A DNA stretch of 43,731 bases. It comes from Escherichia phage vB_EcoP_ACG-C91. The stretch's first letter is position 1. Each line of letters starts with the position of its first letter. The notes beneath the pieces were generated by a model, which worked only from the letters and a program-made list of their open reading frames with translations, did no database searches and was not told the origin of the DNA. Location: the sequence record NC_019403.1; one strand, written 5' to 3'. Shown here piece after piece: positions 1 through 31,610 of this stretch. Made by a program: the position numbers and the translations under genes.

Positions 1-569
1 TCTCGCCCTCGCCCCGCCGGACGGCCCCCCCCCCTACGGGTGGACTTGCCGCTTGGCTTAGGAATTGGGCTAGGCTGGTCCGTCTTCGACGGGCTGGGCA
101 GGGGCTTGCCTTGTACTCGCTTAGTGGTACACAAGGGAGAAGGGCTAGGAAGCGCTAGGGCGCGCCTTAGTATTGGACAAGGTGATTGCCTTAGTGCAAC
201 CGCTTAGGGCTTACACAGGCCGTTTTAGGGCTATTCCTGAGCGTTTGACAGGGTATGCGGGTGTGGGCTATCTGTTCCTTTGCTCCTCACTTCGTTCGTC
301 GCTGCGACTACCTGATGTGTACCTTAGTTATTACCTTGATGGATAGCTTAGGTTAGCCTTAGTGCTTAGCTTAGTATCAACTTAGTAGTGTACCTTAGTT
401 AGTCTTAGTGCCAGACCTCAGTGATTGCACATGCAAGCATGTAAGATGCTAATAGGTCGCGGTCGGTAGACCGCTAAGAAGAAGTAATAGTAATAAGATG
501 CAGTAGGAGGAACACCAGAAACCTAGCCAACCTAGCCTATCCTAGCTCTGTATCTATTGCTTTCCTTAG

Positions 570-585
570 TCTCACATGTTAGACA
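570..585. repeat. Imperfect copy of conserved palindrome (GTCTCACATGTtAGAC)
   Basis: Matches the 16-bp palindrome found at five other sites with one mismatch. Confidence 0.4.
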
Positions 586-2858: not shown

Positions 2859-3743
2859 ATGACTACTGAAAACACCCTCGTGTCTGTCCGTGAAGCTGCA
2901 ACCGCTGAAATCAAGCAACATTTAGACAATATCGGCACTTCTTACATCAAAGTTGGTGCTTGTCTGAATGAATTACGCGGTGATTTCGAAGGTCAAAAAG
3001 ACTTTTTAGCTTATGTAGAATCAGAGTTCGGCATCAAGAAGGCACAATGCTACAAGCTGATGAGTGTAGCCCGTGTCTTTGAAGGAGACGAACGCTTTAA
3101 AGGTGTGGCTATGCGTGTAATGCTGGCGCTTGTTCCTTTCGCTGATGAAAATATAATCATGGAGAAGGCCGCAGAACTCGCCGCAGATGGCAAGCTGGAC
3201 ACTAACGCCGTAAACGCCTTGATTGAGCCTAAGAAAGAGATAAAGACCGAAACGGTACAATCTAAGGCTGAGACAGTAAAACCGCAGGAGAGCGCGACTG
3301 AGGCCGCAGAATCACAGGAAATGCAAGCGCCGCAGGTAGTGCCACCCGCTAGCGAGCAGGAGGCCGACGAATCAGCACCATGGGGAGAGGAAAGCAAGCC
3401 GGAGGCACCGAAGGCAGCGCCGCTGGATAACACGGCTAATACCGAAAACGCCGCTATGGCTAGCCTCTTAGCACAAATTAAGGCACTGACCGAGCAATTA
3501 CAGGCAGCTAATGACCGCATTGCCTCCTTAAGCAGCGCACGCGAAAGCAAGAAGGCAGCCGCGCCTATGCTGCCGCAATTCAAATCTTCCTGCTTCTATG
3601 CTCGCTTAGGTTTAAGCGCTGAGGAGGCAACGAAGAAAACAGCAGTTAACAAGGCACGCCGCGAACTGGTTAAGCTAGGCTACGGCGAAGGCCATGAAGC
3701 ATGGCCCTTAATCTCTGAGGCAGTAGAAGAATTAACTAAGTAA
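2859..3743 (+). CDS. Early protein with DUF3102-like N-terminal domain and low-complexity acidic/Ala/Gln-rich C-terminal half
   Basis: Motif IKVGACLNELRGDFEGQKDFLAYVESEFGIKKAQCYKLMSVARVF resembles the DUF3102 signature (G-x-x-L-x-E...G-x-F-x-x-W/Y...G-I/F-S-x-x-x-A-x-x-Y-M-x-L/V-A) as I recall it; C-terminal half is compositionally biased with a coiled-coil-like stretch. Confidence 0.7.
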   Translation: MTTENTLVSVREAATAEIKQHLDNIGTSYIKVGACLNELRGDFEGQKDFLAYVESEFGIKKAQCYKLMSVARVFEGDERFKGVAMRVMLALVPFADENIIMEKAAELAADGKLDTNAVNALIEPKKEIKTETVQSKAETVKPQESATEAAESQEMQAPQVVPPASEQEADESAPWGEESKPEAPKAAPLDNTANTENAAMASLLAQIKALTEQLQAANDRIASLSSARESKKAAAPMLPQFKSSCFYARLGLSAEEATKKTAVNKARRELVKLGYGEGHEAWPLISEAVEELTK

Positions 3744-6509: not shown

Positions 6510-6525
6510 GTCTCACATGTGAGAC
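6510..6525. repeat. Conserved palindrome GTCTCACATGTGAGAC (copy 1)
   Basis: Perfect 16-bp palindrome immediately upstream of phage promoter. Confidence 0.7.
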
Positions 6526-6527
6526 TT

Positions 6528-6548
6528 ATTTACCGGACACTATAGGAT
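6528..6548 (+). promoter_or_regulatory. Phage-RNAP promoter (ATTTACCGGACACTATAGGAT)
   Basis: Matches the window consensus ATTTAC(T/C)GGACACTATAGAAG, SP6-like CACTATAG core. Confidence 0.7.
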
Positions 6549-6690
6549 AGCCGTCGGAGACGGGAAAGAAAGGGAAGATAAAGGATATAAAGGAAGTAAT
6601 AGGTATTAAAGGTTATATAGGTTATCTAGGAATACCTATTACCTTCTTCCTTCCTCTTATTGCCACTTAGAGGAAGGGCAGATCTAAGTT

Positions 6691-6706
6691 GTCTCACATG
6701 TGAGAC
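6691..6706. repeat. Conserved palindrome GTCTCACATGTGAGAC (copy 2)
   Basis: Perfect palindrome again followed by a promoter-like sequence. Confidence 0.7.
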
Positions 6707-6711
6707 TTCGT

Positions 6712-6732
6712 ATTTACCGGACAGTATAGATA
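6712..6732 (+). promoter_or_regulatory. Phage-promoter variant (ATTTACCGGACAGTATAGATA)
   Basis: Two mismatches from consensus core; upstream of gp1.1-like gene and primase/helicase. Confidence 0.5.
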
Positions 6733-6759
6733 AGATTAACTCACTTTGGAGATTTAACC

Positions 6760-6888
6760 ATGCGTAACTTTGAGAAGATGACCCGTAAAGCTAACCGTTT
6801 TGACATGGAAGAAGGGCAGAAGAAAGGCAAGAAGCTGAATAAACCTGTCCGTGATCGTGCATCTAAACGCGCTGCGTGGGAGTTCTAA
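6760..6888 (+). CDS. Small basic protein, T7 gp1.1-like (42 aa)
   Basis: MRNFEKMTRKANRFDMEEGQKKGKKLNKPVRDRASKRAAWEF resembles T7 gene 1.1 protein (MRNFEKMTKRSN...) as I recall it; GGAG RBS. Confidence 0.6.
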   Translation: MRNFEKMTRKANRFDMEEGQKKGKKLNKPVRDRASKRAAWEF

Positions 6889-6891
6889 GTT

Positions 6892-8880
6892 ATGGCTATT
6901 ATTCAGAATGTACCGTGTCCTGCCTGTCAAAAGAATGGACATGATATTACTGGCAACCATCTTATGATATTTGAGGATGGCGCGGGTTACTGTAACCGTG
7001 GGCACTTCCATGATAATGGCAGGCCATACTACCATAAGCCCGAAGGTGGCATCGAGATAACCGAGTTGCCCATTACTGGCAATATCAAATATACACCTTC
7101 TCAATTCAAAGAGATGGAGACGGAAGGGAAGATAAGCGACCCTAAGTTGCGCGCCATCGCACTTGGTGGTATGCGTATGAAAGACCGTTGGGAGGTCATG
7201 AATGAGCAAGAAAGGGCAGACCAAGAAGCAGAGTGGAAACTTGATGTTGAATGGTTCCTCACGCTTAAGCGTAAGAACCTTGTGTCCCGTCACATTCGAG
7301 GTGACATCGCAGCAATGTACGATGTGCGCGTTGGACACGATGAAGAGGGAAGAGTCAACCGTCACTATTATCCACGATATGAAAAGGGTGTGCTTGTTGG
7401 AGCAAAATGCCGGACGTTGCCGAAGGATTTTAAGTTCGGACACCTAGGTAAACTCTTTGGTATGCAAGACCTTTTCGGTATGAACACTTTGTCTCACGTG
7501 TTAGACAAGGGGAGACGAAAGGATTGCTTGCTTATTGTAGGTGGTGAACTTGATGCACTAGCAGCGCAGCAGATGCTCCTTGATTCTGCCAAGGGTACTA
7601 AGTGGGAAGGCCAGCCATACCATGTATGGTCTGTCAACAAAGGCGAGTCTTGCCTTGAAGAGATAGTGCAGAACCGTGAGCATATCGCCCAATTCAAGAA
7701 GATTATATGGGGTTTTGATGGGGATGAGGTAGGGCAGAAGCAGAACCAACAAGCTGCTCGCCTGTTTCCTGGCAAATCCTACATCCTCGAATATCCCTCT
7801 GGTTGCAAAGATGCTAACAAGGCATTGATGGCTGGCAAGGCTAAAGAGTTTGTTGATGCTTGGTTTAATGCCAAGTCATCTGATGAAGTCTTTGGTAGCC
7901 AGATTAAATCTATCGCATCTCAAAGGGGTAAGCTCAAGGCTGCACGTCCAGAGCAAGGGTTATCATGGCCTTGGCCTAAGCTGAACAAGGTAACGCTAGG
8001 TATTCGTAAGAACCAGCTTATCATTGTAGGTGCAGGTTCTGGTGTAGGTAAGACTGAGTTCCTTCGCGAAGTGGTTAAGCACCTCATTGAAGAACACGGT
8101 GAATCTGTAGGCATCATTTCTACAGAAGACCCAATGGTCAAGGTGTCCCGTGCTTTTATCGGCAAGTGGATTGATAAGCGTATTGAGTTACCGCCAACCA
8201 ACGACCCGAAAGAAGACGGATACCGTGAGGTGTTCGACTACACCGAGGAAGAAGCTAACGCTGCCATTGATTATGTGGCTGATACAGGAAAGCTATTTGT
8301 GGCTGACCTAGAAGGCGACTATTCTATGGAGAAGGTAGAGCAAACTTGCCTAGAGTTTGAGGCTATGGGCATTTCTAATATCATCATTGATAACTTAACG
8401 GGGATTAAATTAGATGAGCGTGCTTTTGGTGGGAAGGTTGGTGCACTTGATGAATGCGTCAAACGAATTGGTACTATCAAAGACCGACATGCGGTTACGA
8501 TTTTCCTTGTCTCTCACCTTACACGTCCTCCGGCAAACCGTACCCAACACGAAGAAGGTGGCGAAGTTATCCTTTCTGACTTCCGAGGCTCAGGCGCTAT
8601 CGGATTCTGGGCATCTTACGCCTTGGGGATTGAGCGTAATACAAGAGCTGAAACGCTTGATGAAAGGACTACCACGTACATCTCGTGTGTCAAAGACCGC
8701 GATCAAGGTATCTACACTGGAACCAAGGTCATGCTTAAGGGTGACATTCAAACCGGACGTTTAATGGAACCACAAGCTAGAACAAGGTCATTTGATACAG
8801 GTGAAACAAGGCAGCAAGAGGTGCCTGATTTACCGGACACTATAGAAGAGACAACCTTTGACGATGAACAGGAGTTTTAA
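6892..8880 (+). CDS. DNA primase/helicase (T7 gp4-like bifunctional)
   Basis: 662 aa; N-terminal Cys-rich zinc-binding region (CPACQ...CNRGHFH); Walker A GAGSGVGKTEF; acidic C-terminal tail ...DDEQEF. Confidence 0.95.
   Translation: MAIIQNVPCPACQKNGHDITGNHLMIFEDGAGYCNRGHFHDNGRPYYHKPEGGIEITELPITGNIKYTPSQFKEMETEGKISDPKLRAIALGGMRMKDRWEVMNEQERADQEAEWKLDVEWFLTLKRKNLVSRHIRGDIAAMYDVRVGHDEEGRVNRHYYPRYEKGVLVGAKCRTLPKDFKFGHLGKLFGMQDLFGMNTLSHVLDKGRRKDCLLIVGGELDALAAQQMLLDSAKGTKWEGQPYHVWSVNKGESCLEEIVQNREHIAQFKKIIWGFDGDEVGQKQNQQAARLFPGKSYILEYPSGCKDANKALMAGKAKEFVDAWFNAKSSDEVFGSQIKSIASQRGKLKAARPEQGLSWPWPKLNKVTLGIRKNQLIIVGAGSGVGKTEFLREVVKHLIEEHGESVGIISTEDPMVKVSRAFIGKWIDKRIELPPTNDPKEDGYREVFDYTEEEANAAIDYVADTGKLFVADLEGDYSMEKVEQTCLEFEAMGISNIIIDNLTGIKLDERAFGGKVGALDECVKRIGTIKDRHAVTIFLVSHLTRPPANRTQHEEGGEVILSDFRGSGAIGFWASYALGIERNTRAETLDERTTTYISCVKDRDQGIYTGTKVMLKGDIQTGRLMEPQARTRSFDTGETRQQEVPDLPDTIEETTFDDEQEF
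8827..8847 (+). promoter_or_regulatory. Phage-RNAP promoter embedded in the 3' end of the primase/helicase gene
   Basis: ATTTACCGGACACTATAGAAG exact consensus; encodes the DLPDTIEE residues of the helicase tail. Confidence 0.6.
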
Positions 8881-9041
8881 TGGAAATTATTAAACCAGTA
8901 TTGAATATCGGTATTGAAATCCTATTCATGCTTGTGATCGCAGATTATGCTGCACGATATGGATTCAAGAAAGCTGTGAAACTTATCGTTGCATCTGGTT
9001 TTATGATGTCAATGTTCTTTATTGTAACACGCCTTATCTAG
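8880..9041 (+). CDS. Small hydrophobic membrane protein (53 aa)
   Basis: ATG overlaps helicase stop (TAATGG); hydrophobic segments; below ORF-track cutoff. Confidence 0.3.
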   Translation: MEIIKPVLNIGIEILFMLVIADYAARYGFKKAVKLIVASGFMMSMFFIVTRLI

Positions 9042-9055
9042 TGTATTTATCAGGG

Positions 9056-9077
9056 CTTGTCTCACATGTGAGACAAG
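9056..9077. repeat. Conserved palindrome, extended to 22 bp (CTTGTCTCACATGTGAGACAAG) (copy 3)
   Basis: Perfect 22-bp palindrome. Confidence 0.7.
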
Positions 9078-9113
9078 CTCTTATTAAGTACATTAAATAA
9101 CTGGAGATTGATT

Positions 9114-9836
9114 ATGTATAAATTAGTATTGAATGCAGGTGATTATGTTCGTAACATCAATGAAGCCTCACGTCGTTATCGTTGCCGTGGTGTAGTAGCT
9201 CGTGTAAGTGAGAACATGTATCATGTAGAATATGATGGTGGTATTAAGGCTTCTTATCACAAGAAAACCGCACATAAATATCTTGAAAAGGTTGTAGAGG
9301 TAAACAATCAATGTAAGTGCATACATGATGAGGTTTGCGATAAGTGTGCACGTCAGGTAGTTAAAGCCTTTACCTTTGCTCAACGCTATGGTTCTATGTA
9401 TGGTGCTGGTAACAAGACCCTTGCAGAAGCAGCTTGGAAGACATTGCAGTTTGAGCGTTCAAATGGACGACGCACCACACTTAAGAAGGAGCGCCGCAAT
9501 GTAATCACTGGTAAGACTCAAAGTGAGATGATTAAGCAATATGGCACTGCATTAGGTGTTACGCAGTTTAATACTCGTGCATTGGGTAAATCCACAGGAC
9601 AAGCTATGGTGAAGATTGGCGAAGCCATGATGCATCCAAATGTACCTGTGCGAATCATGGATGTTGACCATGCAATCACAGAACATGGTACACCACGGCG
9701 TGTAGCTAATAATCATTTTGCCGACACTATAGAAGATATTATCCGTAAGCAAGAGTTGAAAGGTCTTCACATCTTGAATGGTGAAGAGTTACTGTATCTC
9801 CCTATCGTTACTGAAGAAACCTACGTGAATATCTAA
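9114..9836 (+). CDS. Hypothetical protein (241 aa)
   Basis: ORF track (9108..9836); start moved to ATG 9114 with GGAG RBS at 7-nt spacing; no family recognised. Confidence 0.65.
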   Translation: MYKLVLNAGDYVRNINEASRRYRCRGVVARVSENMYHVEYDGGIKASYHKKTAHKYLEKVVEVNNQCKCIHDEVCDKCARQVVKAFTFAQRYGSMYGAGNKTLAEAAWKTLQFERSNGRRTTLKKERRNVITGKTQSEMIKQYGTALGVTQFNTRALGKSTGQAMVKIGEAMMHPNVPVRIMDVDHAITEHGTPRRVANNHFADTIEDIIRKQELKGLHILNGEELLYLPIVTEETYVNI

Positions 9837-9846
9837 GGAGTTAATC

Positions 9847-10065
9847 ATGACTAAGGTATTAATTTATATGCGTGGACCTCATAAATGCTATGCAGTTGTA
9901 GCACCAGATGGTGTTAAGCCCTATGGTACTTCAAAAGGATTGGCATTAATAGGTGCTAGTCGTAGTGCAAGTTTCCAAATGGAACTTTTTGGTCATTGGA
10001 CTGAATGGCAATTCCGTGAGGATTTTAAAGTTGTTGGCAGCTTTATGGTGAAACATGCAAAATAA
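9847..10065 (+). CDS. Hypothetical protein (72 aa)
   Basis: ORF track; AAGGAG RBS. Confidence 0.6.
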   Translation: MTKVLIYMRGPHKCYAVVAPDGVKPYGTSKGLALIGASRSASFQMELFGHWTEWQFREDFKVVGSFMVKHAK

Positions 10066-10264
10066 ACACAGCCTTAAGATGTTTGATGGTCACGAAGACC
10101 TGCAAGCACAAATTACTAATCAAGCCTTCCTGTTTGCACAGTTAACTATGGCTGAAGCAAAGAAGAATAGTCTGACATGTGAGCAGGTTATCAAGGAGGC
10201 AACTTGGGAGCCACACCAAGGCAAATACATGGGCCAGAAACTAACTGTAACACGCAGTCGGTAA
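10055..10264 (+). CDS. Hypothetical protein (69 aa; alternative start ATG 10079)
   Basis: ORF track; overlaps previous gene by 11 nt. Confidence 0.5.
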   Translation: MQNKHSLKMFDGHEDLQAQITNQAFLFAQLTMAEAKKNSLTCEQVIKEATWEPHQGKYMGQKLTVTRSR

Positions 10265-10273
10265 GTCAAGGGT

Positions 10274-10291
10274 TGTCTCACACGTGAGACA
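10274..10291. repeat. Conserved palindrome variant TGTCTCACACGTGAGACA (copy 4), followed by a T-run
   Basis: Palindrome then GCCTTTTAT; possible terminator or processing hairpin. Confidence 0.6.
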
Positions 10292-10321
10292 GCCTTTTAT
10301 CATATTGATTGGAGGTGCATT

Positions 10322-10432
10322 ATGCCACGTGATTATGATTCTGATTGGGACTACTATGACTCAATGAATCCAAAACCTGAACATTCAGATGATTATTATT
10401 GGGTGGAGGAAATGTATGAAGATTGTTGATTG
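10322..10432 (+). CDS. Small acidic protein (36 aa) overlapping DNAP start
   Basis: ATG with strong GGAGGTG RBS; aromatic/acidic composition; below ORF-track cutoff. Confidence 0.3.
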
Positions 10433-12962
10433 GAAGAAGGAGGCAGAAGGCCGTATCCTTGTCATGGATGCGGAAGCTAAAGGTCTTCTTGATGCTATCC
10501 GCTATGGTCATCGTGAAGATGTACACATCATTTGCTGCATGGATTTGCTTACTACAGAGGAGTTCCTCTTCTTTGACCCATATGAGATGCGTGACCCTGA
10601 AGCAAGGGAACACCTGAAGGAATGGGAGGGCCATCAAGATGGAACCTTGGTTGACGGTGTAAACTTCCTGAAGCACTGTGAAGCCATTGTGTCACAGAAC
10701 TTCCTAGGCTATGACGGGCTTCTCTTTGAGAAAGCATTCCCTGACATCTGGAAGGGCTTTAACTATACCGAGAGGCGCGGCAAGGGCAGACTTCGTGCTG
10801 ACCTGTGCCCAGTGCGCGTCATGGATACGCTGGTGATGAGTCGCCTGTTAAACCCCGATAGACGCCTTCCTCCGCAAGCATACGCCAAAGGTATGGGTAA
10901 CGTTGCCCCTCACTCAATTGAGGCGCACGGCATCCGTATAGGTCGCTATAAACCGGAGAACGAGGACTGGTCTAAGTTGACCGACCACATGGTTCACCGT
11001 GTACGTGAGGACGTGGCTATCGGACGTGACCTATTCCTCTGGCTATTTAACGGAGAATGGACGGAGCACAAACGCCGTGGCGTGAACAAACGCACTGGCC
11101 TAGGCATTGAGACAGCCTTCCACATGGAATCCATTGTTGCGCTGGAGATGAGCCGTCAGGCCGAGCGTGGATTCCGTCTGGACATTGACAAAGCATTAGC
11201 GCGATGCGAAGAACTGGACGCTAAGATTGACGAGACAGTCGCAGCGTTCCGTCCGCACATGCCTATGCGTATTAAGTCTAAACCTTTTAAACCGGAAGAA
11301 AAGAATGAAGTATGCCAACGCGCAAATGAGTATGGAGCTAGCAACAATATACCTACTGTCCTTGACCCCTCACACTTTCTTCATGCCGAGAGACGAGGAG
11401 ATCGCAAGACAGTATGGAGTGTCACTACTAAGTCTGGTGATTGGTCGGCTAGTGTCAAGAAAGACTTTCCTCACCTTAGAGGAAACCGTAATGACACGCC
11501 AAGTATCAAGTGGATTGGCGCTTACTCGCCTGTTACTTTCGAAGAGATTCCCTTGGGTAACAGGGATACAGTTAAGCAAGTGCTCTATGATTATGGATGG
11601 AAAGGTGTTGAATTTAACGATACCGAGCAAGCGCATCTGGATGAGTATGGAGTGTTACCCAAGCCTTGGAGTGGGAAGATAAATGAAAAGTCCCTTACTT
11701 TATGGCAAGAGAGAGCCGCACGTGAAGGTAAAACAGTCCCTGATTGGTGCTTGGGTATCGCTGCATGGTACATACTCGTATCCCGTCGTGGTCAGATCCT
11801 CAACCGTGGTGACGTTGAAGCCTTCGACCAGAAGGGGGTGTGGCCTTCGCAAGCTGGTATACGAAAGTGTCGCGGCCTTGTACCTGTAGCATTTAACAAG
11901 GAGTTAGGAATCAATGCGCAGCAATACTACGAAAGGTACGGATGCTGGCCTACGTCAGACAAGGATGACGGAGAATGGCGTGTGCCAGCTATTGCTATTA
12001 GTATTGGAACTTCTACGTTCCGTATGCGTCATCGTAACGTGGTTAATATTCCTGCCCGTGGTTTGTATCCTTTACGTGATTTATTCATAGCCGGTAAAGG
12101 TAAGCTAATCCTTGGTTGTGATGGTGCTGGTCTTGAACTACGTGTACTGTCTCACTTCATGAATGACCCTGAATATCAAGATATTGTACTGCATGGTGAC
12201 ATTCACACCCATAATCAAATGAAGGCTGGTCTTCCTAAGCGTGACATGGCGAAGACATTTATATATGCCTTCCTATATGGGTCTGGTATAGCTAACCTTG
12301 CAGCAGTATGTGGTGTTACTGAGGAAGAAATGGAGGAAGTTGTGGCAAGATTTGAGGTTGAACTACCATCTCTTGCACGTCTTCGTGAGAATGTTATCGC
12401 ACAAGGTAACAAGTTTGGCTACCTACAAGCACCTGATGGTCATTGGGGTCGCATCCGTATGTCTGGTGGTGAACTTAAAGAGCACACTATGCTTAACGTA
12501 CTACTCCAGATGACTGGTTCTCTGTGTATGAAATACGCATTGGTCAGAGCGTTTGCAGTGATGCGCAAGGAAGGTGTGGCCTTAGATAGCATGGGAAACC
12601 CTTGCGGTATAGCTAACGTGCACGATGAAATCCAGATGGAAGTCCCTAAAGATGAGGTCTTGTATCTCAACTACGACTTGCCTTTCACCTTAGAAGGGTT
12701 CGAAACAGAGAAGGCTGCTGTGAAAGCAGTGTTCGATGCAGAGGGGAAACGTGTTCATGTGGATTCTGAAGGACGTATGTGGTCTGCTGCAAATCTCGTT
12801 AGTGTTGATGCTGATGCTGGTGTACTTCATTGCCAGCGTCGTTATCACCGTGCAGGGCATATCATTGCCGATGCAATGACTTGGGCGGGTCAGTACCTGA
12901 AGATGCGTTGTCCGATGGCAGGTGAGTATAAGATTGGTGCAAGTTGGAAGGAAACACACTGA
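10416..12962 (+). CDS. DNA polymerase, family A (T7 gp5-like)
   Basis: 848 aa from ATG 10416 (GGAGG RBS); motif A DGAGLELRVLSHF, motif B KTFIYAFLYGSG, motif C VHDEIQ. Confidence 0.95.
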   Translation: MKIVDWKKEAEGRILVMDAEAKGLLDAIRYGHREDVHIICCMDLLTTEEFLFFDPYEMRDPEAREHLKEWEGHQDGTLVDGVNFLKHCEAIVSQNFLGYDGLLFEKAFPDIWKGFNYTERRGKGRLRADLCPVRVMDTLVMSRLLNPDRRLPPQAYAKGMGNVAPHSIEAHGIRIGRYKPENEDWSKLTDHMVHRVREDVAIGRDLFLWLFNGEWTEHKRRGVNKRTGLGIETAFHMESIVALEMSRQAERGFRLDIDKALARCEELDAKIDETVAAFRPHMPMRIKSKPFKPEEKNEVCQRANEYGASNNIPTVLDPSHFLHAERRGDRKTVWSVTTKSGDWSASVKKDFPHLRGNRNDTPSIKWIGAYSPVTFEEIPLGNRDTVKQVLYDYGWKGVEFNDTEQAHLDEYGVLPKPWSGKINEKSLTLWQERAAREGKTVPDWCLGIAAWYILVSRRGQILNRGDVEAFDQKGVWPSQAGIRKCRGLVPVAFNKELGINAQQYYERYGCWPTSDKDDGEWRVPAIAISIGTSTFRMRHRNVVNIPARGLYPLRDLFIAGKGKLILGCDGAGLELRVLSHFMNDPEYQDIVLHGDIHTHNQMKAGLPKRDMAKTFIYAFLYGSGIANLAAVCGVTEEEMEEVVARFEVELPSLARLRENVIAQGNKFGYLQAPDGHWGRIRMSGGELKEHTMLNVLLQMTGSLCMKYALVRAFAVMRKEGVALDSMGNPCGIANVHDEIQMEVPKDEVLYLNYDLPFTLEGFETEKAAVKAVFDAEGKRVHVDSEGRMWSAANLVSVDADAGVLHCQRRYHRAGHIIADAMTWAGQYLKMRCPMAGEYKIGASWKETH

Positions 12963-13078
12963 TGGACAGGTTTGATATTGTTTGCCTATTCTCTACCTCC
13001 TTTCTTATATTCCTTATGCTTGCTTGCTATGGAAGTATGCGATTAGATATACCTGATGAAGAGGAGGGTTACGATTGA
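12962..13078 (+). CDS. Small hydrophobic protein (38 aa)
   Basis: ATG overlaps DNAP stop; hydrophobic core; below ORF-track cutoff. Confidence 0.3.
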   Translation: MDRFDIVCLFSTSFLIFLMLACYGSMRLDIPDEEEGYD

Positions 13079-13176
13079 TGCAGGCATCTTTTATTATTCT
13101 TGGAGTCATATTATTTATGGTAGTATTCTGGGCTTTCTCTGGCATTGACCCAGATTGTGATGGTAACTACGACTGA
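13078..13176 (+). CDS. Small hydrophobic membrane protein (32 aa)
   Basis: ATG with AGGAGG RBS; single predicted TM segment. Confidence 0.35.
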   Translation: MQASFIILGVILFMVVFWAFSGIDPDCDGNYD

Positions 13177-13244
13177 GTTATACTCAAGGTCACTTACGAG
13201 TGGCCTTTATGAATAACTTATTCCTACTTATTTTGTCTAACATG

Positions 13245-13265
13245 ATTTACTGGACACTATAGAAG
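13245..13265 (+). promoter_or_regulatory. Phage-RNAP promoter (ATTTACTGGACACTATAGAAG)
   Basis: Exact consensus. Confidence 0.75.
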
Positions 13266-13331
13266 GAAAACCTAGGTAATCTAGGTTTATAAGGTAGTAT
13301 AGGTAATTAAGTAAATATAGGAGATATAAAT

Positions 13332-13709
13332 ATGTCTATGGTAACTACTCTGGTATTCGTGGCTCAATACTTCCGTGGTCTGGCTAATAAGTTCAAGTCC
13401 AAGGCCATCAAAGCTATTGAGGTTCGCATCGAAGCAGTACAGACAGAGCAAGTTAAAGTGGAAGAACATCGTAGTTCTCAAATGATTGACTGTCACAACC
13501 GCTACTATGCATCTCGTGATGAATTAAATGCACGTCAAGTCAAAGAGGTTGAAGAAATGATGGCACGTCACCAGCAAGAGCGTGACAGCCTGAAAGCTGA
13601 ATTTGAAGAGAACAAGGCATCCATTGCTCTGGTACATCAAGCAGCATCTGATAGCCTGAAGAAAGAGATTGTTATGCTGGAAATCGAACTGGACAACTTG
13701 ACTAAATAA
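13332..13709 (+). CDS. Hypothetical protein (125 aa), predicted coiled coil
   Basis: ORF track; AGGAG RBS; heptad-like charged sequence. Confidence 0.7.
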   Translation: MSMVTTLVFVAQYFRGLANKFKSKAIKAIEVRIEAVQTEQVKVEEHRSSQMIDCHNRYYASRDELNARQVKEVEEMMARHQQERDSLKAEFEENKASIALVHQAASDSLKKEIVMLEIELDNLTK

Positions 13710-13715
13710 GGAGTT

Positions 13716-14015
13716 ATGATGGAAGAAGTGATTCAAGCTAAACATGTAAGTATCATCTTTCGTGATTTAGAGCAGCGTAAAGTTGCAGGCCATACCCGTT
13801 TGGCTAAAGAAGATGATACAGCAATCACTACTGTTGAACAAGCAGATGCCTATCGTGGGCCAGAGTTCACCCAAGGTGAAACCTGTCACCAATTGAGCCT
13901 GTCACTTTGTGACACTATGGCTATTGTAAATGTGCAAGAAGTGGAAGACGGCGAGTGTGTTAGTTACATCTACCCTCTAGACACTATTGCACGCATTAAG
14001 GTAATCCATAAATAA
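13716..14015 (+). CDS. Hypothetical protein (99 aa)
   Basis: ORF track; AAGGAG RBS. Confidence 0.65.
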   Translation: MMEEVIQAKHVSIIFRDLEQRKVAGHTRLAKEDDTAITTVEQADAYRGPEFTQGETCHQLSLSLCDTMAIVNVQEVEDGECVSYIYPLDTIARIKVIHK

Positions 14016-14033
14016 TTACTGGACACTATAGAA
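14013..14033 (+). promoter_or_regulatory. Phage-RNAP promoter variant (AATTACTGGACACTATAGAAC)
   Basis: Two mismatches from consensus. Confidence 0.6.
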
Positions 14034-14092
14034 CAATAGGTCGGCTTAGTTCGGCCTATGATTGTGTAGTGTAACAATAGGAGACTAAATAA

Positions 14093-14899
14093 ATGGCACG
14101 TGGTGATTTTGATTTTGGTGCTCAGGTTACTAAAGCTGAAGGTAAAGTATTTAAGAACCCTGAAGTTGGTGATCATGAAGCAGTAATCTCTGGCATCATT
14201 CATGTTGGTTCCTTTCAAGACATCTTTAAGAAAGGCAATACCACTGAAGTTAAGAAGCCAGCAAACTTTGTTCTTGTTAAGATTGTCCTGATGGGTGACG
14301 ATGATAAGAACGAAGATGGCTCTCGCATGGAACAATGGATGGCTGTGCCTCTGAAGTCTGGTGACAAGGCAACCTTGACTAAGTTCCTGAATGCAGTAGA
14401 CCCTAAAGAGTTGCTCGGTGGCTTCGATGACTTCATCGGGGAGTGCCTGACTGCAACTATGGTTGGCTCTGGTGACAAGAATGAAGACGGCTCATTCAAG
14501 TATGTTAACTGGAAAGGGTTCGGTGGTATGCCGGACAAGCTGAAGAAACTTGTCATTGCTCAGGTAGAAGAGGAAGGTCTGTCTATGACAGGTCATATCA
14601 CATTTGATAAGCTGACTAAAGAAATCATTGATGATATTCCTGCTAATCTGGTGCGTCAGTATTTACTGAACGAGACGCCTCGTGGTAAGAACCTGTCTGT
14701 TGCTGGCTCTCACGTAGAAGCAATCATCAAAGCTGCTCGTGAAGAAGACCCAGAGTGGAAGAAAGCCAAGAAGAAAGACGACGAAGATGCTACCCCAGCT
14801 AATCGCAAATCTTTGGATACTGGCGAGTCTGTCCCGCAAGAAGTGCCGGAAGCAGATAATGCGCCTGCACCGGAAATGGATGAGGACGCGGAATATTAA
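14093..14899 (+). CDS. Hypothetical replication-region protein with acidic C-terminal tail (possible ssDNA-binding protein)
   Basis: 268 aa; two internal GDxDKNEDGS repeats; ends ...PEMDEDAEY (acidic tail with terminal aromatic, as in phage SSBs); SSB assignment is inference from position and tail only. Confidence 0.7.
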   Translation: MARGDFDFGAQVTKAEGKVFKNPEVGDHEAVISGIIHVGSFQDIFKKGNTTEVKKPANFVLVKIVLMGDDDKNEDGSRMEQWMAVPLKSGDKATLTKFLNAVDPKELLGGFDDFIGECLTATMVGSGDKNEDGSFKYVNWKGFGGMPDKLKKLVIAQVEEEGLSMTGHITFDKLTKEIIDDIPANLVRQYLLNETPRGKNLSVAGSHVEAIIKAAREEDPEWKKAKKKDDEDATPANRKSLDTGESVPQEVPEADNAPAPEMDEDAEY

Positions 14900-14908
14900 G
14901 GAGGTCTG

Positions 14909-15127
14909 ATGAAGGTACAAATCGTAACACTGCACTGTAAAAAGGGGGTTACCACGCTCGGAGGTAATACTTTTCACTCCTTCTCCGAAGGGGAGATTTA
15001 CGCTGACCTGCACTACATCTGGCGCGACGGACAGCACGTGGTGAACTACAGCGACCCTGCGACTGGTAAACGCCACGGCGTGTCGCTTCCGGCGCACGAC
15101 ATTGCGCAGGTGAACACAGTTTTATAA
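14909..15127 (+). CDS. Hypothetical protein (72 aa)
   Basis: ORF track; AAGGAGG RBS. Confidence 0.65.
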   Translation: MKVQIVTLHCKKGVTTLGGNTFHSFSEGEIYADLHYIWRDGQHVVNYSDPATGKRHGVSLPAHDIAQVNTVL

Positions 15128-15128
15128 A

Positions 15129-15144
15129 GTCTCACACGTGAGAC
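15129..15144. repeat. Conserved palindrome GTCTCACACGTGAGAC (copy 5)
   Basis: Perfect palindrome directly after stop of ORF 14909..15127 and 15 bp upstream of a promoter. Confidence 0.7.
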
Positions 15145-15159
15145 AACTCGGTGTCCGGT

Positions 15160-15180
15160 ATTTACTGGACACTATAGAAG
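15160..15180 (+). promoter_or_regulatory. Phage-RNAP promoter (ATTTACTGGACACTATAGAAG)
   Basis: Exact consensus. Confidence 0.75.
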
Positions 15181-15232
15181 AGAAGAATTTTAATCGGCGA
15201 TAATGCCATAACCAACAAAAGGAGAATTTAAT

Positions 15233-15604
15233 ATGTTCGCTATTGAAACTATCGTAAACCGTGTTGTTAAAGGTGCTGATCTGGTATCCGTTGAGTCTTT
15301 CGTTATCGTCGATGAAGCCAACAAACTGGTAGCTGGCACTAAGGCTTATGATACTCGTGAAGAAGCTCAGGCTAAGATTGACAGCATGGGTAACTTCGCT
15401 ACTGGTCTGGAGTTCGCTCGTGCTTGCTTCCCTGAGCAGGCTGACAAAGCCCAGATTGGTAAGGCTAACATCGTAGCTGAATATCTGGATTGGATTGCTG
15501 CTGGTAAACCAGTGAAAGAAGTTAAAGCTGCTGAAGAAGCTGAAGCTCCGGCAGTAGAAGTGTCTGCACCGGAAGCTCCGGTTAGCGAAGAGGAAGAGTT
15601 TTGA
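15233..15604 (+). CDS. Hypothetical protein (123 aa) with acidic C-terminal tail ending ...SEEEEF
   Basis: ORF track; AAAGGAG RBS; C-terminal tail resembles the DNAP-binding tails of T7 gp2.5/gp4. Confidence 0.7.
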   Translation: MFAIETIVNRVVKGADLVSVESFVIVDEANKLVAGTKAYDTREEAQAKIDSMGNFATGLEFARACFPEQADKAQIGKANIVAEYLDWIAAGKPVKEVKAAEEAEAPAVEVSAPEAPVSEEEEF

Positions 15605-31546: not shown

Positions 31547-31610
31547 TACCTAACTCAAGGCTTGTCCAACGTGTTGGACAGGTCTTTATGATAGGCACTA
31601 AGGAGGTCAT

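What the first reader, a model, noticed from the sequence alone, without database searches (positions are those of the whole stretch)
6510..15144. Conserved 16-bp palindrome GTCTCACA(T/C)GTGAGAC recurring six times, usually just upstream of phage promoters
Copies lie at 570-585 (imperfect), 6510-6525, 6691-6706, 9059-9074 (extended to 22 bp), 10275-10290 and 15129-15144. Sequence conservation exceeds what a generic hairpin needs, and three copies sit 3-18 bp upstream of a phage promoter. Candidate roles are RNase III or other processing sites, RNAP pause/termination signals, or a binding site for a regulatory or DNA-metabolism protein; a related hairpin GTCCAACGTGTTGGAC lies at 31565-31582.
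Basis: seen in the sequence. Interest (0 to 1): 0.55.

Follow-up and report, generated by a model that had tools for sequence, protein, structure and literature searches.

The report
Operator sites of phage protein gp6
The repeated 16-bp palindrome is real and is most likely the DNA docking site of a so far unannotated early phage protein (gp6, a ParB/KorB-like DNA binder), which points to an unrecognised regulatory layer in the whole SP6/K1E group of phages.

Summary
The window is a complete K1E/K1-5-like Vectrevirus genome. It carries 8 copies of a 16-bp palindrome of the form GTCYMAC-RY-GTKRGAC, where none is expected by chance.

Every SP6-supergroup phage examined has 5-11 copies at matching genome positions, as 16-mers or 17-mers. 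This includes phages of Proteus, Klebsiella, Erwinia, Pseudomonas, Vibrio, Shewanella and Marinomonas, and several metagenomic lineages.

In 25 lineages, base 5 of the half-site co-varies without exception with one residue of a helix-turn-helix in the early protein gp6 (window 2859-3743). Lys or Arg goes with C, and Asn or His goes with A. At least 4 independent switches support this. The gp6 model shows a DUF3102/KorB/ParB-like DNA-binding domain, a coiled coil and a J-like domain.

My best reading is that the palindromes are gp6 operators placed at transcription-unit boundaries. Three of them (9059, 10275, 31564) have also been extended into sense-strand RNA hairpins. RNase III sites or terminators do not explain the family as a whole. 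No binding experiment exists and the function is inferred. I found no prior description.

The parts
569..584 (.). Site S1, GTCTCACATGTTAGAC (one mismatch). It lies in the left-end non-coding region, 24 bp and 68 bp upstream of the -35 hexamers of sigma70-like early promoters at 608-637 and 652-680.
   Evidence: An orthologous copy is present in every relative examined. In the Proteus phages, S1 is the only copy in 16-mer form; their five other copies are 17-mers.
6510..6525 (.). Site S3, a perfect palindrome. It follows the terminator after the RNA polymerase gene and lies 2 nt upstream of the phage promoter at 6528-6550.
6691..6706 (.). Site S4, a perfect palindrome, 5 nt upstream of the phage promoter at 6712-6734.
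7491..7506 (.). Site S5, GTCTCACGTGTTAGAC, inside the primase/helicase gene (6892-8880). It reads G TCT CAC GTG TTA GAC, which encodes S-H-V-L-D. The single mismatch avoids a TGA stop codon.
   Evidence: The site is conserved at synonymous positions in Vectrevirus, SP6, Klebsiella and Lelliottia phages, while the flanking codons vary.
9052..9081 (+). Site S6. The core is at 9059-9074, at the apex of a 13-bp sense-strand hairpin followed by CTCTTATT. It lies between gp9.5 and gp10.
   Evidence: The orthologous site in Pm5460 is annotated as a rho-independent terminator.
10268..10297 (+). Site S7. The core is at 10275-10290, at the apex of a 13-bp sense-strand hairpin followed by TTTTATCAT. It lies between gp11 and the DNA polymerase gene.
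   Evidence: The lower stem covaries, for example AAGGGTT/AGCCTTT here against GTGACTT/AGGTCAC in SP6.
15129..15144 (.). Site S8, 2 nt after the gp17 stop codon and 15 nt upstream of the phage promoter at 15160-15182.
   Evidence: The same slot is occupied in Colwellvirinae.
31557..31586 (+). Site S11. The core is at 31564-31579 in the variant form GTCCAACGTGTTGGAC, at the apex of a 13-bp sense-strand hairpin between the internal virion protein genes gp35 and gp36.
   Evidence: K1-5 and K1E have GTCTCACATGTGAGAC at the same place.
2859..3743 (+). The gp6 gene (294 aa), immediately upstream of the RNA polymerase gene. It is the candidate binding protein. Residues about 10-122 form a DUF3102/KorB/ParB-like helix-turn-helix domain, with the putative recognition helix K61-F74 (KAQCYKLMSVARVF). 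An acidic disordered linker follows, then a coiled coil at 196-230 and a J-like domain at 239-293 that lacks the HPD motif.
6528..6550 (+). Phage RNA polymerase promoter ATTTACCGGACACTATAGGATAG, abutted upstream by S3.
6712..6734 (+). Phage promoter ATTTACCGGACAGTATAGATAAG, abutted upstream by S4.
15160..15182 (+). Phage promoter ATTTACTGGACACTATAGAAGAG, downstream of S8.

Best explanation
The palindromes are double-stranded DNA operators for the phage's own early protein gp6 (window 2859-3743).

How binding is proposed to work (inferred):
- gp6 is predicted to dimerise through a coiled coil.
- Each subunit carries a KorB/ParB/DUF3102-like helix-turn-helix domain on a long flexible linker.
- Each domain reads one 8-nt half-site, GTCYMACR.
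- The residue after the conserved Tyr in the recognition helix (Lys66 in this window) reads base pair 5 of the half-site.

What is shown directly:
- The site family exists and is far above chance.
- It is conserved at matching genome positions.
- It is under nucleotide-level selection inside genes.
- It co-varies with gp6.
- The gp6 model has a DNA-binding-type fold.

Proposed function (inferred):
- The roughly 8 sites per genome sit at boundaries of transcription units. They lie just upstream of the early host-type promoters, just after terminators, 0-20 bp upstream of several phage promoters, and at a few places inside genes.
- gp6 therefore probably acts like the plasmid regulator KorB, as a global boundary, roadblock or promoter-proximal regulator laid over the RNA polymerase switch.
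- Its J-like domain may recruit a host partner such as DnaK.

At three slots (9059, 10275, 31564) the operator has also been extended into a 13-bp sense-strand RNA hairpin with a U-rich tail. This probably acts as an attenuator or an RNA-stability element.
For: 1. Enrichment. There are 8 copies against about 0 expected. Isolated half-sites are not enriched.

2. Breadth. Matching copies occur in all Molineuxvirinae tested. A 17-mer form occurs in Proteus phages and in Colwellvirinae whose RNA polymerase is only about 42% identical.

3. Homogeneity. Copies within one genome share the same sequence. Arms differ between lineages (GTCTCAC, GTCCAAC, GTCTAAC, GTTTCAC, GTCTCAT, GTCTAGC, GTCTACC, GTCTCCT, GTTCGAG) and both arms always change together. 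This is expected when all copies must fit one shared sequence-specific binding protein.

4. Central positions. The centre is always R-Y, or A/G-N-T/C in the 17-mers. The two central positions vary independently of each other, as two half-sites would.

5. Selection inside genes.
- The helicase copy is kept at synonymous positions while flanking codons are saturated with changes.
- Vibrio phage Vp670 has the 17-mer at the same place in its RNA polymerase gene as the Erwinia phage 16-mer, but in another reading frame.

6. Distribution of gp6. gp6 homologues were found in every SP6-supergroup genome and locus tested. By tblastn they occur in 210 phage records. All listed rows are 43-47 kb SP6-type phages and none is T7-like.

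7. Co-variation with gp6.
- In 25 lineages, the helix residue Lys/Arg goes with C at half-site position 5, and Asn/His goes with A.
- There are no exceptions, and at least 4 independent switches appear on the gp6 tree.
- Lineages fetched after the rule was formulated all fit it: L190, L191, L193, L194 and L196.
- L188 and L189, found just before that, also fit.
- The pairing matches the textbook Lys/Arg-guanine and Asn-adenine contacts (established knowledge).

8. Structure.
- The AlphaFold model has mean pLDDT 81.7, and above 90 in the N-terminal domain.
- Its best PDB neighbours are the VirB, P1 ParB and KorB DNA-binding domains in complex with DNA.
- The viral structure library gives DUF3102 phage proteins, with E-values as good as 4.8e-4.

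9. Spacing. A flexible linker between the DNA-binding domain and the coiled coil would explain why both 16-bp and 17-bp spacings are tolerated, even within one genome.
Against: - No binding experiment exists. The link between gp6 and the sites rests on co-variation and a predicted fold.
- Genomes with the Lys-type helix still hold a few sites with A at position 5 (window 31564; K1-5 559 and 9570). The rule therefore describes the majority of sites in a genome, not every site.
- Edwardsiella and Erwinia VL73 phages have gp6 homologues, with Trp in place of Gln in the helix, but no clear repeated palindrome.
- Arm covariation, with single-step U.G intermediates, and the extended stems at three slots also fit an RNA-hairpin reading.
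- The proposed function (boundary or roadblock regulator) is inferred from position alone. Replication-origin or DNA-organising roles are equally open.
Confidence: 0.65

Rival explanations
1. The elements act mainly as RNA hairpins on the sense transcripts. They would be punctuation signals for processing (the counterpart of T7 RNase III sites), for 3'- or 5'-end protection, or for pausing and termination of the phage RNA polymerase. Under this reading, the conserved apex is recognised by an RNA-binding factor or a nuclease.
For: - All genes lie on one strand, so nearly every copy is transcribed.
- Sites S6, S7 and S11 have 7 extra stem pairs that covary between genomes. Thirty distinct lower stems can fold on the + strand, most only because G.U pairs are allowed. 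Only 3 can fold on the - strand.
- In the pair count, 44 cells changed on both sides against 14.3 in shuffles.
- T-rich tails follow these three sites.
- The Pm5460 GenBank record annotates the orthologous S6 as a terminator.
- The arms change by compensatory steps, and no TC/CA mixed arms occur among 174 sites.
- In Vibrio and Pseudomonas phages, several copies sit 1-2 nt upstream of a Shine-Dalgarno sequence.
- T7 RNase III sites also lie next to promoters (own knowledge).
Against: - Five of the 8 window copies can form only a 6-7 bp stem, which is too short for RNase III (established knowledge of its substrates).
- A plain hairpin function does not explain identical sequences across copies and across subfamilies, the R-Y rule at the centre, or the perfect co-variation with a helix-turn-helix residue of gp6.
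- S1 lies upstream of the first promoters.
- Several copies lie directly after strong intrinsic terminators, or upstream of the promoter that serves the next unit, so they are poorly represented in RNA.
- Functional copies inside essential genes would be harmful if they were cleavage or termination sites.
- Mismatches in the core show no clear strand bias: 9 U.G against 5 C.A.
- Rfam gives no match.
Confidence: 0.15
2. The palindromes are protein-binding sites, but the binding partner is not gp6. It would be another conserved phage protein, such as the helicase/primase, gp16, gp18 or gp22, or a host factor shared by gamma-proteobacteria. The gp6 correlation would then be a by-product of shared ancestry.
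For: - gp16, gp18 and gp22 are also conserved across the whole supergroup.
- The fold evidence for gp6 is weak.
- Genomes with the Lys-type helix tolerate a few A5 sites.
Against: - The helix residue and base 5 switch together at least 4 times independently, including between sister lineages (L193 against L191; Vectrevirus against L154/SP6).
- A host factor does not fit. Closely related hosts (E. coli, Salmonella, Klebsiella) see different variants, while distant hosts (E. coli, Erwinia, Pseudomonas, Vibrio) see the same one.
- None of the other conserved proteins of unknown function shows a DNA-binding signature in Pfam or PHROGs.
Confidence: 0.1
3. The palindromes are recombination or mobility cassettes, like the promoter-stem-loop (PeSL) elements of T4-like phages. 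Short conserved sequences at module junctions would promote shuffling of small genes.
For: - The copies sit at gene-module junctions where small ORFs come and go. For example, gp9.5, gp11.5 and gp12 differ between K1E, K1-5 and the window.
- Site variants are swapped between close relatives while the flanks stay the same (window 31564 against K1-5; K1-5 9570 against the window).
- PeSLs are a described precedent (PMC4122927, listed).
Against: - This reading does not explain the in-gene copies under selection, the half-site rule at the centre, the co-variation with gp6, or conservation of the same slots across subfamilies whose flanks are no longer alignable.
- A 16-bp repeat is very short for homologous recombination.
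Confidence: 0.05

Closest known systems
KorB and its OB operators on IncP plasmid RK2 (ParB family)
   Same: - In both cases a palindromic site of 13-16 bp is scattered in about 10 copies over a small replicon.
- Some copies lie immediately upstream of promoters, others far from promoters or inside genes.
- The sites are bound by a dimeric helix-turn-helix protein that acts as a global regulator. This description of KorB is from my own knowledge of the literature.
- The KorB DNA-binding domain is among the best structural neighbours of the gp6 N-terminal domain.
   Different: - gp6 has no detectable ParB N-terminal CTPase domain.
- No ParA/IncC partner is annotated in related genomes.
- gp6 has a C-terminal J-like domain in place of the KorB dimerisation domain.
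- It sits in a strictly lytic T7-supergroup phage that uses its own RNA polymerase.
ParB/parS centromere sites (16-bp palindrome TGTTNCACGTGAAACA)
   Same: - Both are 16-bp palindromes present in several copies.
- Copies often lie inside genes and near the gene for the binding protein itself. Several gp6 genes carry or abut a site: Njord 3200, L188 10805, L189 3437, L191 5661, L196 11021.
- The half-site GT(C/T)TCAC resembles the parS half-site GTTTCAC. Lineages L173 and L184 use exactly GTTTCAC.
   Different: - The half-sites here are 2-3 bp further apart than in parS.
- There is no ParA, no CTPase motif and no partition need in a lytic phage.
- The resemblance in sequence may be coincidental.
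T7 RNase III processing sites (R0.3 ... R18.5)
   Same: Both are intergenic hairpin-forming elements in a T7-supergroup genome, and several lie next to phage promoters (own knowledge).
   Different: - T7 sites are long irregular hairpins of about 20 bp or more, without a shared sequence.
- Here the shared part is a 16-bp sequence-constant core that in most copies can form only 6-7 bp.
- The core also occurs upstream of all promoters and inside genes.
PeSL promoter-stem-loop cassettes of T4-like phages (PMC4122927)
   Same: Both are conserved composite motifs at junctions of variable small genes, and both combine a stem-loop with a promoter.
   Different: - Only 3 of the 8 copies have a promoter, and that promoter is for the phage polymerase.
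- The palindrome is conserved independently of the promoter sequence. Erwinia, Proteus, Pseudomonas and Vibrio phages have different promoters but the same palindrome.
DUF3102 proteins of phages and plasmids
   Same: They are the best structural neighbours of gp6 among predicted viral structures, with E-values from 4.8e-4 to 0.4 and probability about 1.0.
   Different: The Pfam DUF3102 model does not score gp6, even at E = 10. The DUF3102 family itself has no established function.

Membership tests
Palindromic operator of a dimeric helix-turn-helix protein | Dyad-symmetric site made of two equivalent half-sites | tested here: met
   The half-site is GTCYMACR in inverted repeat. The central R and Y vary independently, as two half-sites would.
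Palindromic operator of a dimeric helix-turn-helix protein | Several copies with the same sequence in one genome, far above chance | tested here: met
   There are 8 copies against about 0 expected. Relatives carry 5-11 copies.
Palindromic operator of a dimeric helix-turn-helix protein | A cognate DNA-binding protein encoded by the same replicon, whose specificity tracks the site | tested here: met
   The gp6 recognition-helix residue (K/R against N/H) co-varies with half-site base 5 (C against A) in 25 lineages. At least 4 independent switches occur and there are no exceptions.
Palindromic operator of a dimeric helix-turn-helix protein | Physical binding of the protein to the site | not testable with these tools
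   This needs a gel-shift assay, footprinting or ChIP-seq.
ParB/KorB family | Central helix-turn-helix DNA-binding domain of the ParB/KorB fold | tested here: inconclusive
   [not shown]
ParB/KorB family | N-terminal ParB/Srx CTP-binding domain | tested here: not met
   There is no Pfam or NCBIfam match. The modelled N-terminus is a single long helix.
ParB/KorB family | Partner ParA-type ATPase | not tested
   None is annotated in K1E, K1-5, SP6 or the other relatives. I did not scan every window ORF.
RNase III processing site (T7 type) | Double-stranded RNA of about two helical turns | tested here: not met
   Five of the 8 copies fold only into a 6-7 bp stem (-5 to -11 kcal/mol). The other three reach 13 bp.
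RNase III processing site (T7 type) | Cleavage in infected cells | not testable with these tools
   No transcript-end data are available.
Intrinsic (class I) terminator | Stable G+C-rich hairpin followed directly by a U run | tested here: inconclusive
   - S7 has a 13-bp stem followed by UUUUAU.
- S6 and S11 have weaker tails.
- S1, S3, S4, S5 and S8 lack a stable stem.
- S3 and S4 pass the simple scan only as 6-pair stems.
PeSL-type promoter-stem-loop cassette | Fixed composite of a stem-loop and a promoter | tested here: not met
   Only 3 of the 8 copies have a promoter within 20 nt, and the spacing varies from 2 to 15 nt.
J-domain proteins (gp6 C-terminus) | J-domain fold | tested here: met
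   [not shown]
J-domain proteins (gp6 C-terminus) | HPD motif needed to stimulate Hsp70 | tested here: not met
   The loop reads GYGEGHE, and GYG.GHE across the family. The domain is therefore J-like, as in Tim16.

The most novel reading that the evidence does not exclude
SP6-type phages, including the source of the widely used SP6 RNA polymerase, carry a previously unrecognised third regulatory layer. An early protein that combines a KorB/ParB-like DNA binder with a J-like domain reads a genome-wide network of 16/17-bp operators. It does so through a simple, evolvable one-residue/one-base code (Lys/Arg for a C.G pair, Asn/His for an A.T pair). The protein then controls transcription-unit boundaries or origin-proximal promoters, possibly by bringing a host chaperone to the phage DNA.
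Probability: 0.4. Interest if true: 0.8.

Novelty: new variant of a known kind. Interest (0 to 1): 0.72.

Why it matters
T7- and SP6-type phages are textbook examples of a developmental programme run almost entirely by RNA polymerase specificity. A sequence-specific DNA-binding protein with about 8 operators per genome, conserved over two subfamilies and many hosts, would add an unexpected layer of control to that picture.

It would also give a function to a gene that is annotated only as 'hypothetical' or with evidently spurious names in the phage records shown, out of 210 records that carry it. It would explain palindromes that have at least once been annotated as terminators. And it would supply a natural series of orthogonal protein/operator pairs with a readable specificity rule, sitting next to SP6-type promoters, which could be useful for engineered expression systems.

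Everything needed for a direct test is defined here: the protein, the residue, the sites and the natural variants.

Tried and rejected
- Rfam scan of the window found no family.
- Full-text searches for the exact 16-mers and 17-mers found no paper. Searches on SP6/K1-5/K1E with terms for palindrome, hairpin, inverted repeat, Molineuxvirinae or Autographiviridae found nothing relevant.
- The two 2004 genome papers on SP6 and K1-5 are not held. I cannot exclude that they mention the repeat.
- The paper on JSS1_004 turned out to concern a T7 gp0.7-like kinase and is unrelated.
- Pfam and PHROGs scans of twenty early and middle proteins gave no nucleic-acid-binding annotation.
- gp22 (a metallophosphoesterase with an extra N-terminal region) was considered as the binder. 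It was dropped because there is no PDB match and no link to the sites.
- The word-indexed protein search with the gp6 N-terminal domain returned only 2 hits. The exhaustive search was needed instead.
- The single-sequence AlphaFold model of gp6 was poor, with pLDDT 59, and was replaced by the alignment-based model.
- A primase recognition site was rejected. SP6 primase uses GCA (own knowledge), and that trinucleotide is absent from the core.
- Binding sites of CRP, LexA, MetJ or the LacI family were considered from memory. None fits.
- The actinobacterial contig L074 carries three exact copies next to a ParA-like gene, plus an ORF with a similar helix-turn-helix motif (BLASTP E 4e-4). The profile comparison was weak, with probability 3.4%, so I do not use it as evidence.
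- The afdb50 fold library was not available.
- One script flooded its output with runs of N and was repeated.


Full report
**What the window is**

By megablast, the window is 94-95% identical to Escherichia phages K1E and K1-5 (genus Vectrevirus, subfamily Molineuxvirinae, the SP6 supergroup) over a 10-kb query. It is a whole genome of 43,731 bp without the second copy of the terminal repeat. All genes lie on the + strand.

**Checking the observation**

- The exact pattern GTCTCACAYGTGAGAC occurs at 6510, 6691, 9059, 10275 and 15129. No match appeared in 100 dinucleotide-preserving shuffles.
- The 'related hairpin' at 31564-31579 (GTCCAACGTGTTGGAC) is the same element. K1-5 and K1E carry GTCTCACATGTGAGAC at that orthologous place, and K1-5 carries GTCCAACGTGTTGGAC where the window has the 10275 copy.
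- A search with the K1-5-type promoter consensus finds 13 phage promoters. Three of them start 2, 5 and 15 nt after a palindrome.

**The element is much wider than the finding**

- The generalised pattern GTCYMAC-RY-GTKRGAC finds 7-10 copies in SP6, two Klebsiella phages, Lelliottia phD2B, Erwinia phiEa100 and Pantoea Nifs112.
- The copies occupy the same genome slots in each:
  - the left end, before the early promoters;
  - inside the RNA polymerase gene;
  - once or twice after the RNA polymerase gene;
  - inside the helicase gene;
  - after the helicase gene;
  - before the DNA polymerase gene;
  - before gene 18;
  - between the internal virion protein genes gp35 and gp36.
- Proteus phages carry five 17-mers (GTCCAACA-N-TGTTGGAC) plus one 16-mer.
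- Pseudomonas phage Njord has 11 copies and Vibrio phage Vp670 has 9 copies of GTCTCACA(C/G)TGTGAGAC. Both belong to the Colwellvirinae, and their RNA polymerase is about 42% identical to that of the window.
- An exact scan of IMG/VR for the 17-mer hits almost only contigs of 42-48 kb of this phage type; one hit lies on a 27-kb contig.
- The phage promoters next to the palindromes differ completely between these groups, while the palindrome stays the same.

**Evidence for an RNA hairpin at three slots**

At three slots (window 9059, 10275 and 31564) the palindrome is the apex of a 13-bp stem.
- The 7 lower pairs differ in sequence between genomes but stay paired, and G.U pairs occur on the sense strand only.
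- Over all the loci I held, 30 distinct lower stems are compatible with folding on the + strand. Only 3 are compatible with the - strand.
- In a formal pair count, 44 cells changed on both sides against 14.3 in shuffles. The percentage paired in that count is inflated by how I chose the sequences. The covariation is not.
- These three sites have T-rich tails. The orthologous site in phage Pm5460 is annotated as a terminator in GenBank.

I therefore accept a sense-strand RNA hairpin, probably an attenuator or a stabiliser, at these three slots.

**Why a hairpin does not explain the family**

- Five of the 8 window copies fold only into 6-7 bp.
- The left-end copy lies upstream of the first sigma70-like promoters.
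- In several genomes the copy lies directly after the U-tract of a strong terminator, or directly upstream of the promoter serving the next unit.
- All 16 positions are constrained, including the centre. The centre is always R-Y, and the two central positions vary independently, as two half-sites would.
- Copies within a genome share the same sequence, while arms differ between lineages.
- In-gene copies are under nucleotide-level selection:
  - In the helicase gene, the site is kept at synonymous positions in four divergent lineages while the neighbouring codons are saturated with changes.
  - In the RNA polymerase gene, Vp670 has the 17-mer at the same place as the Erwinia phage 16-mer, but in a different reading frame (VSRCET against VSHVLD).
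  - The usual in-gene frame gives S-(H/N)-V-L-D. The one 'mismatch' (TTA for TGA) avoids a stop codon.

This pattern calls for a sequence-specific binding factor that is encoded by the phage. A host factor does not fit, because related hosts see different variants and distant hosts see the same one.

**Finding the factor: gp6**

Among the conserved proteins of unknown function, gp6 stood out. Its gene is at 2859-3743, directly upstream of the RNA polymerase gene. It contains a helix-turn-helix-like motif..DFLAYVESEFGIKKAQCYKLMSVARVF...

- gp6 is present in every genome and locus of the supergroup that I tested.
- By tblastn it occurs in 210 phage records. All listed rows are SP6-type phages of 43-47 kb, none is T7-like, and the gene is annotated only as hypothetical or with evidently spurious names.
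- An exhaustive HMMER search found 108 cluster representatives.

Aligning the helix against the palindrome type gave a simple rule.
- The residue after the conserved Tyr/Phe is Lys or Arg wherever half-site base 5 is C. This holds for:
  - GTCTCAC: window, K1-5, Erwinia, Pantoea, Pseudomonas, Vibrio;
  - GTTTCAC: L173, L184;
  - GTCTCAT: Shewanella.
- The residue is Asn or His wherever base 5 is A (GTCCAAC or GTCTAAC: SP6, L154, Lelliottia, Pectobacterium-like L161, Klebsiella, Proteus).
- On both the RNA polymerase tree and the gp6 tree, Vectrevirus (Lys with C) is nested among Asn-with-A relatives, so the pair has switched back and forth.

I then fetched metagenomic contigs encoding gp6 homologues chosen for their helix residue. 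In each one I looked, without prior assumption, for the most frequent perfect inverted repeat.

| Locus | Helix residues | Repeat found | Copies |
|---|---|---|---|
| L188 | Tyr-Asn | GTCTAGC-RY-GCTAGAC | 6 |
| L189 | Tyr-Asn | GTCTACC-RY-GGTAGAC | 5 |
| L190 | Phe-Asn | GTCCAACGTGTTGGAC | 1 |
| L191 | Tyr-Asn | GTCTAACACGTTAGAC | 3 |
| L193 (sister of L191) | Tyr-Lys | GTCTCACGTGTGAGAC | 3 |
| L194 | Cys-Lys | GTCTCAC-NNN-GTGAGAC | 2 |
| L196 | Tyr-Arg | GTCTCCT-YR-AGGAGAC | 4 |

All of these fit the rule. The rule was formulated, and the residue-to-base-5 form. The tree shows at least four independent switches and no exception in 25 lineages. The pairing also agrees with the classical contacts of Lys/Arg with guanine and Asn with adenine (established knowledge).

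**What gp6 looks like**

With a 49-sequence alignment, AlphaFold gives mean pLDDT 81.7, and above 90 for residues 10-122. The model has four parts:
- a helical N-terminal domain, with the putative recognition helix at 61-74;
- a disordered acidic linker;
- a coiled coil at 196-230;
- a small C-terminal domain.

Structural comparisons:
- The best Foldseek hits in the PDB are the DNA-binding domains of VirB, P1 ParB and KorB in complex with DNA. These are weak, with E of 2-4.
- Among predicted viral structures, the nearest neighbours are DUF3102 proteins.
- No sequence-profile library recognises gp6.
- The J-like domain lacks the HPD motif.

A dimer whose DNA-binding domains hang on long flexible linkers would explain why spacings of 16 and 17 bp are both used, even within one genome.

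**Most likely mechanism**

Shown:
- a conserved network of palindromes, far above chance;
- selection on their DNA sequence;
- co-variation with a residue of gp6;
- a DNA-binding-type fold for gp6.

Inferred:
- gp6 is made early and binds the sites as a dimer.
- It works as a global regulator at unit boundaries. The sites lie upstream of the early promoters, behind terminators, at the upstream edge of the two promoters after the RNA polymerase gene and of the gene 18 promoter, and at a few in-gene positions where it could act as a roadblock.

The closest analogue in how it would work is KorB with its OB operators on plasmid RK2. Membership in the ParB/KorB family is not established, because there is no CTPase domain, no ParA partner and only weak fold similarity. 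Roles at replication origins are equally possible on present evidence, since the two promoters after the polymerase gene correspond in position to the T7 primary origin (own knowledge). So is a role in organising phage DNA.

**Weak points**

- No binding data exist.
- The fold matches are weak.
- A few A5 sites persist in Lys-type genomes.
- gp6 homologues in the Edwardsiella and VL73 phages have no obvious site.
- The arm covariation by itself fits a hairpin reading equally well.

**Novelty**

I found no description of the palindrome or of gp6 in the searchable literature. As a kind of thing, a palindromic operator with a helix-turn-helix dimer is ordinary. What appears to be new is:
- its presence as a conserved genome-wide network in lytic T7-supergroup phages;
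- the domain combination of the protein;
- the readable specificity rule.

Noticed in passing
L074:964-3019 (IMG/VR contig 2784746770_000001, 129 kb, high G+C): Three exact copies of GTCTCACATGTGAGAC flank a ParA-like gene (1094-2020). The next ORF (2017-2979) has a helix-turn-helix motif, FKAYLQERWGISRAHGYRVV, resembling that of gp6, with Arg at the Lys66 position. BLASTP gives E 4e-4, but the profile comparison is weak (probability 3.4%). This could be a centromere-like site of a distant relative, or a coincidence.
   Followed up: partly
[not shown]
   Followed up: partly
window 14093-14899 (gp16) and 15233-15604 (gp18): Both proteins end in an acidic tail with a terminal aromatic residue (..DEDAEY and ..SEEEEF). 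This resembles the C-terminal tails of T7 gp2.5 and gp4 (own knowledge). gp16 may be the single-strand DNA-binding protein of this phage group.
   Followed up: no
window 13235-13242: An isolated half-site, GTCTAACA, directly abuts the phage promoter at 13245. The right half of a former palindrome may have been overwritten by the promoter.
   Followed up: no
window 7491-7506; L110:5800 and 21301; L004:17752; L112:4901 and 18133: In-gene copies in four different genes (RNA polymerase, helicase, ligase, gene 23) are nearly always in the same reading frame, giving S-(H/N)-(V/M)-L-D. In that frame the perfect GTCTCAC-type site would create a TGA stop codon, which explains the recurrent TTA 'mismatch'.
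   Followed up: yes
L111:9147-9189 (Proteus phage Pm5460, KP890822): The GenBank record annotates a rho-independent terminator that contains the 17-mer GTCCAACAGTGTTGGAC (9159-9175). The element has therefore been seen before, but read as an ordinary terminator.
   Followed up: partly
L185 (Edwardsiella phage WAG25P1) and L186 (Erwinia phage VL73): Their gp6 homologues have an extra N-terminal region of about 100 aa and Trp instead of Gln in the helix (KAWAY(R/K)LMKV). No clear repeated palindrome was found. VL73 shows TGTCT-N8-AGACA seven times, which may be a differently spaced site.
   Followed up: partly
L114:3200, L188:10805, L196:11021, L189:3437, L191:5661, L173:9278: In many lineages one copy lies inside the gp6 gene or immediately after it. 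This resembles parS within or next to parB, and fits autoregulation. The window has no such copy.
   Followed up: no
window 10275 against L002:9570; window 31564 against L002:31015 and L003:32586: Between genomes about 94% identical, whole sites are swapped between the GTCTCAC and GTCCAAC variants while the flanks stay the same. This suggests exchange with phages of the other type, or rapid concerted change.
   Followed up: no
window 1-40: The first 35 nt are very G+C-rich (TCTCGCCCTCGCCCCGCCGGACGGCCCCCCCCCC). The sequence holds only one copy of the terminal repeat.
   Followed up: no
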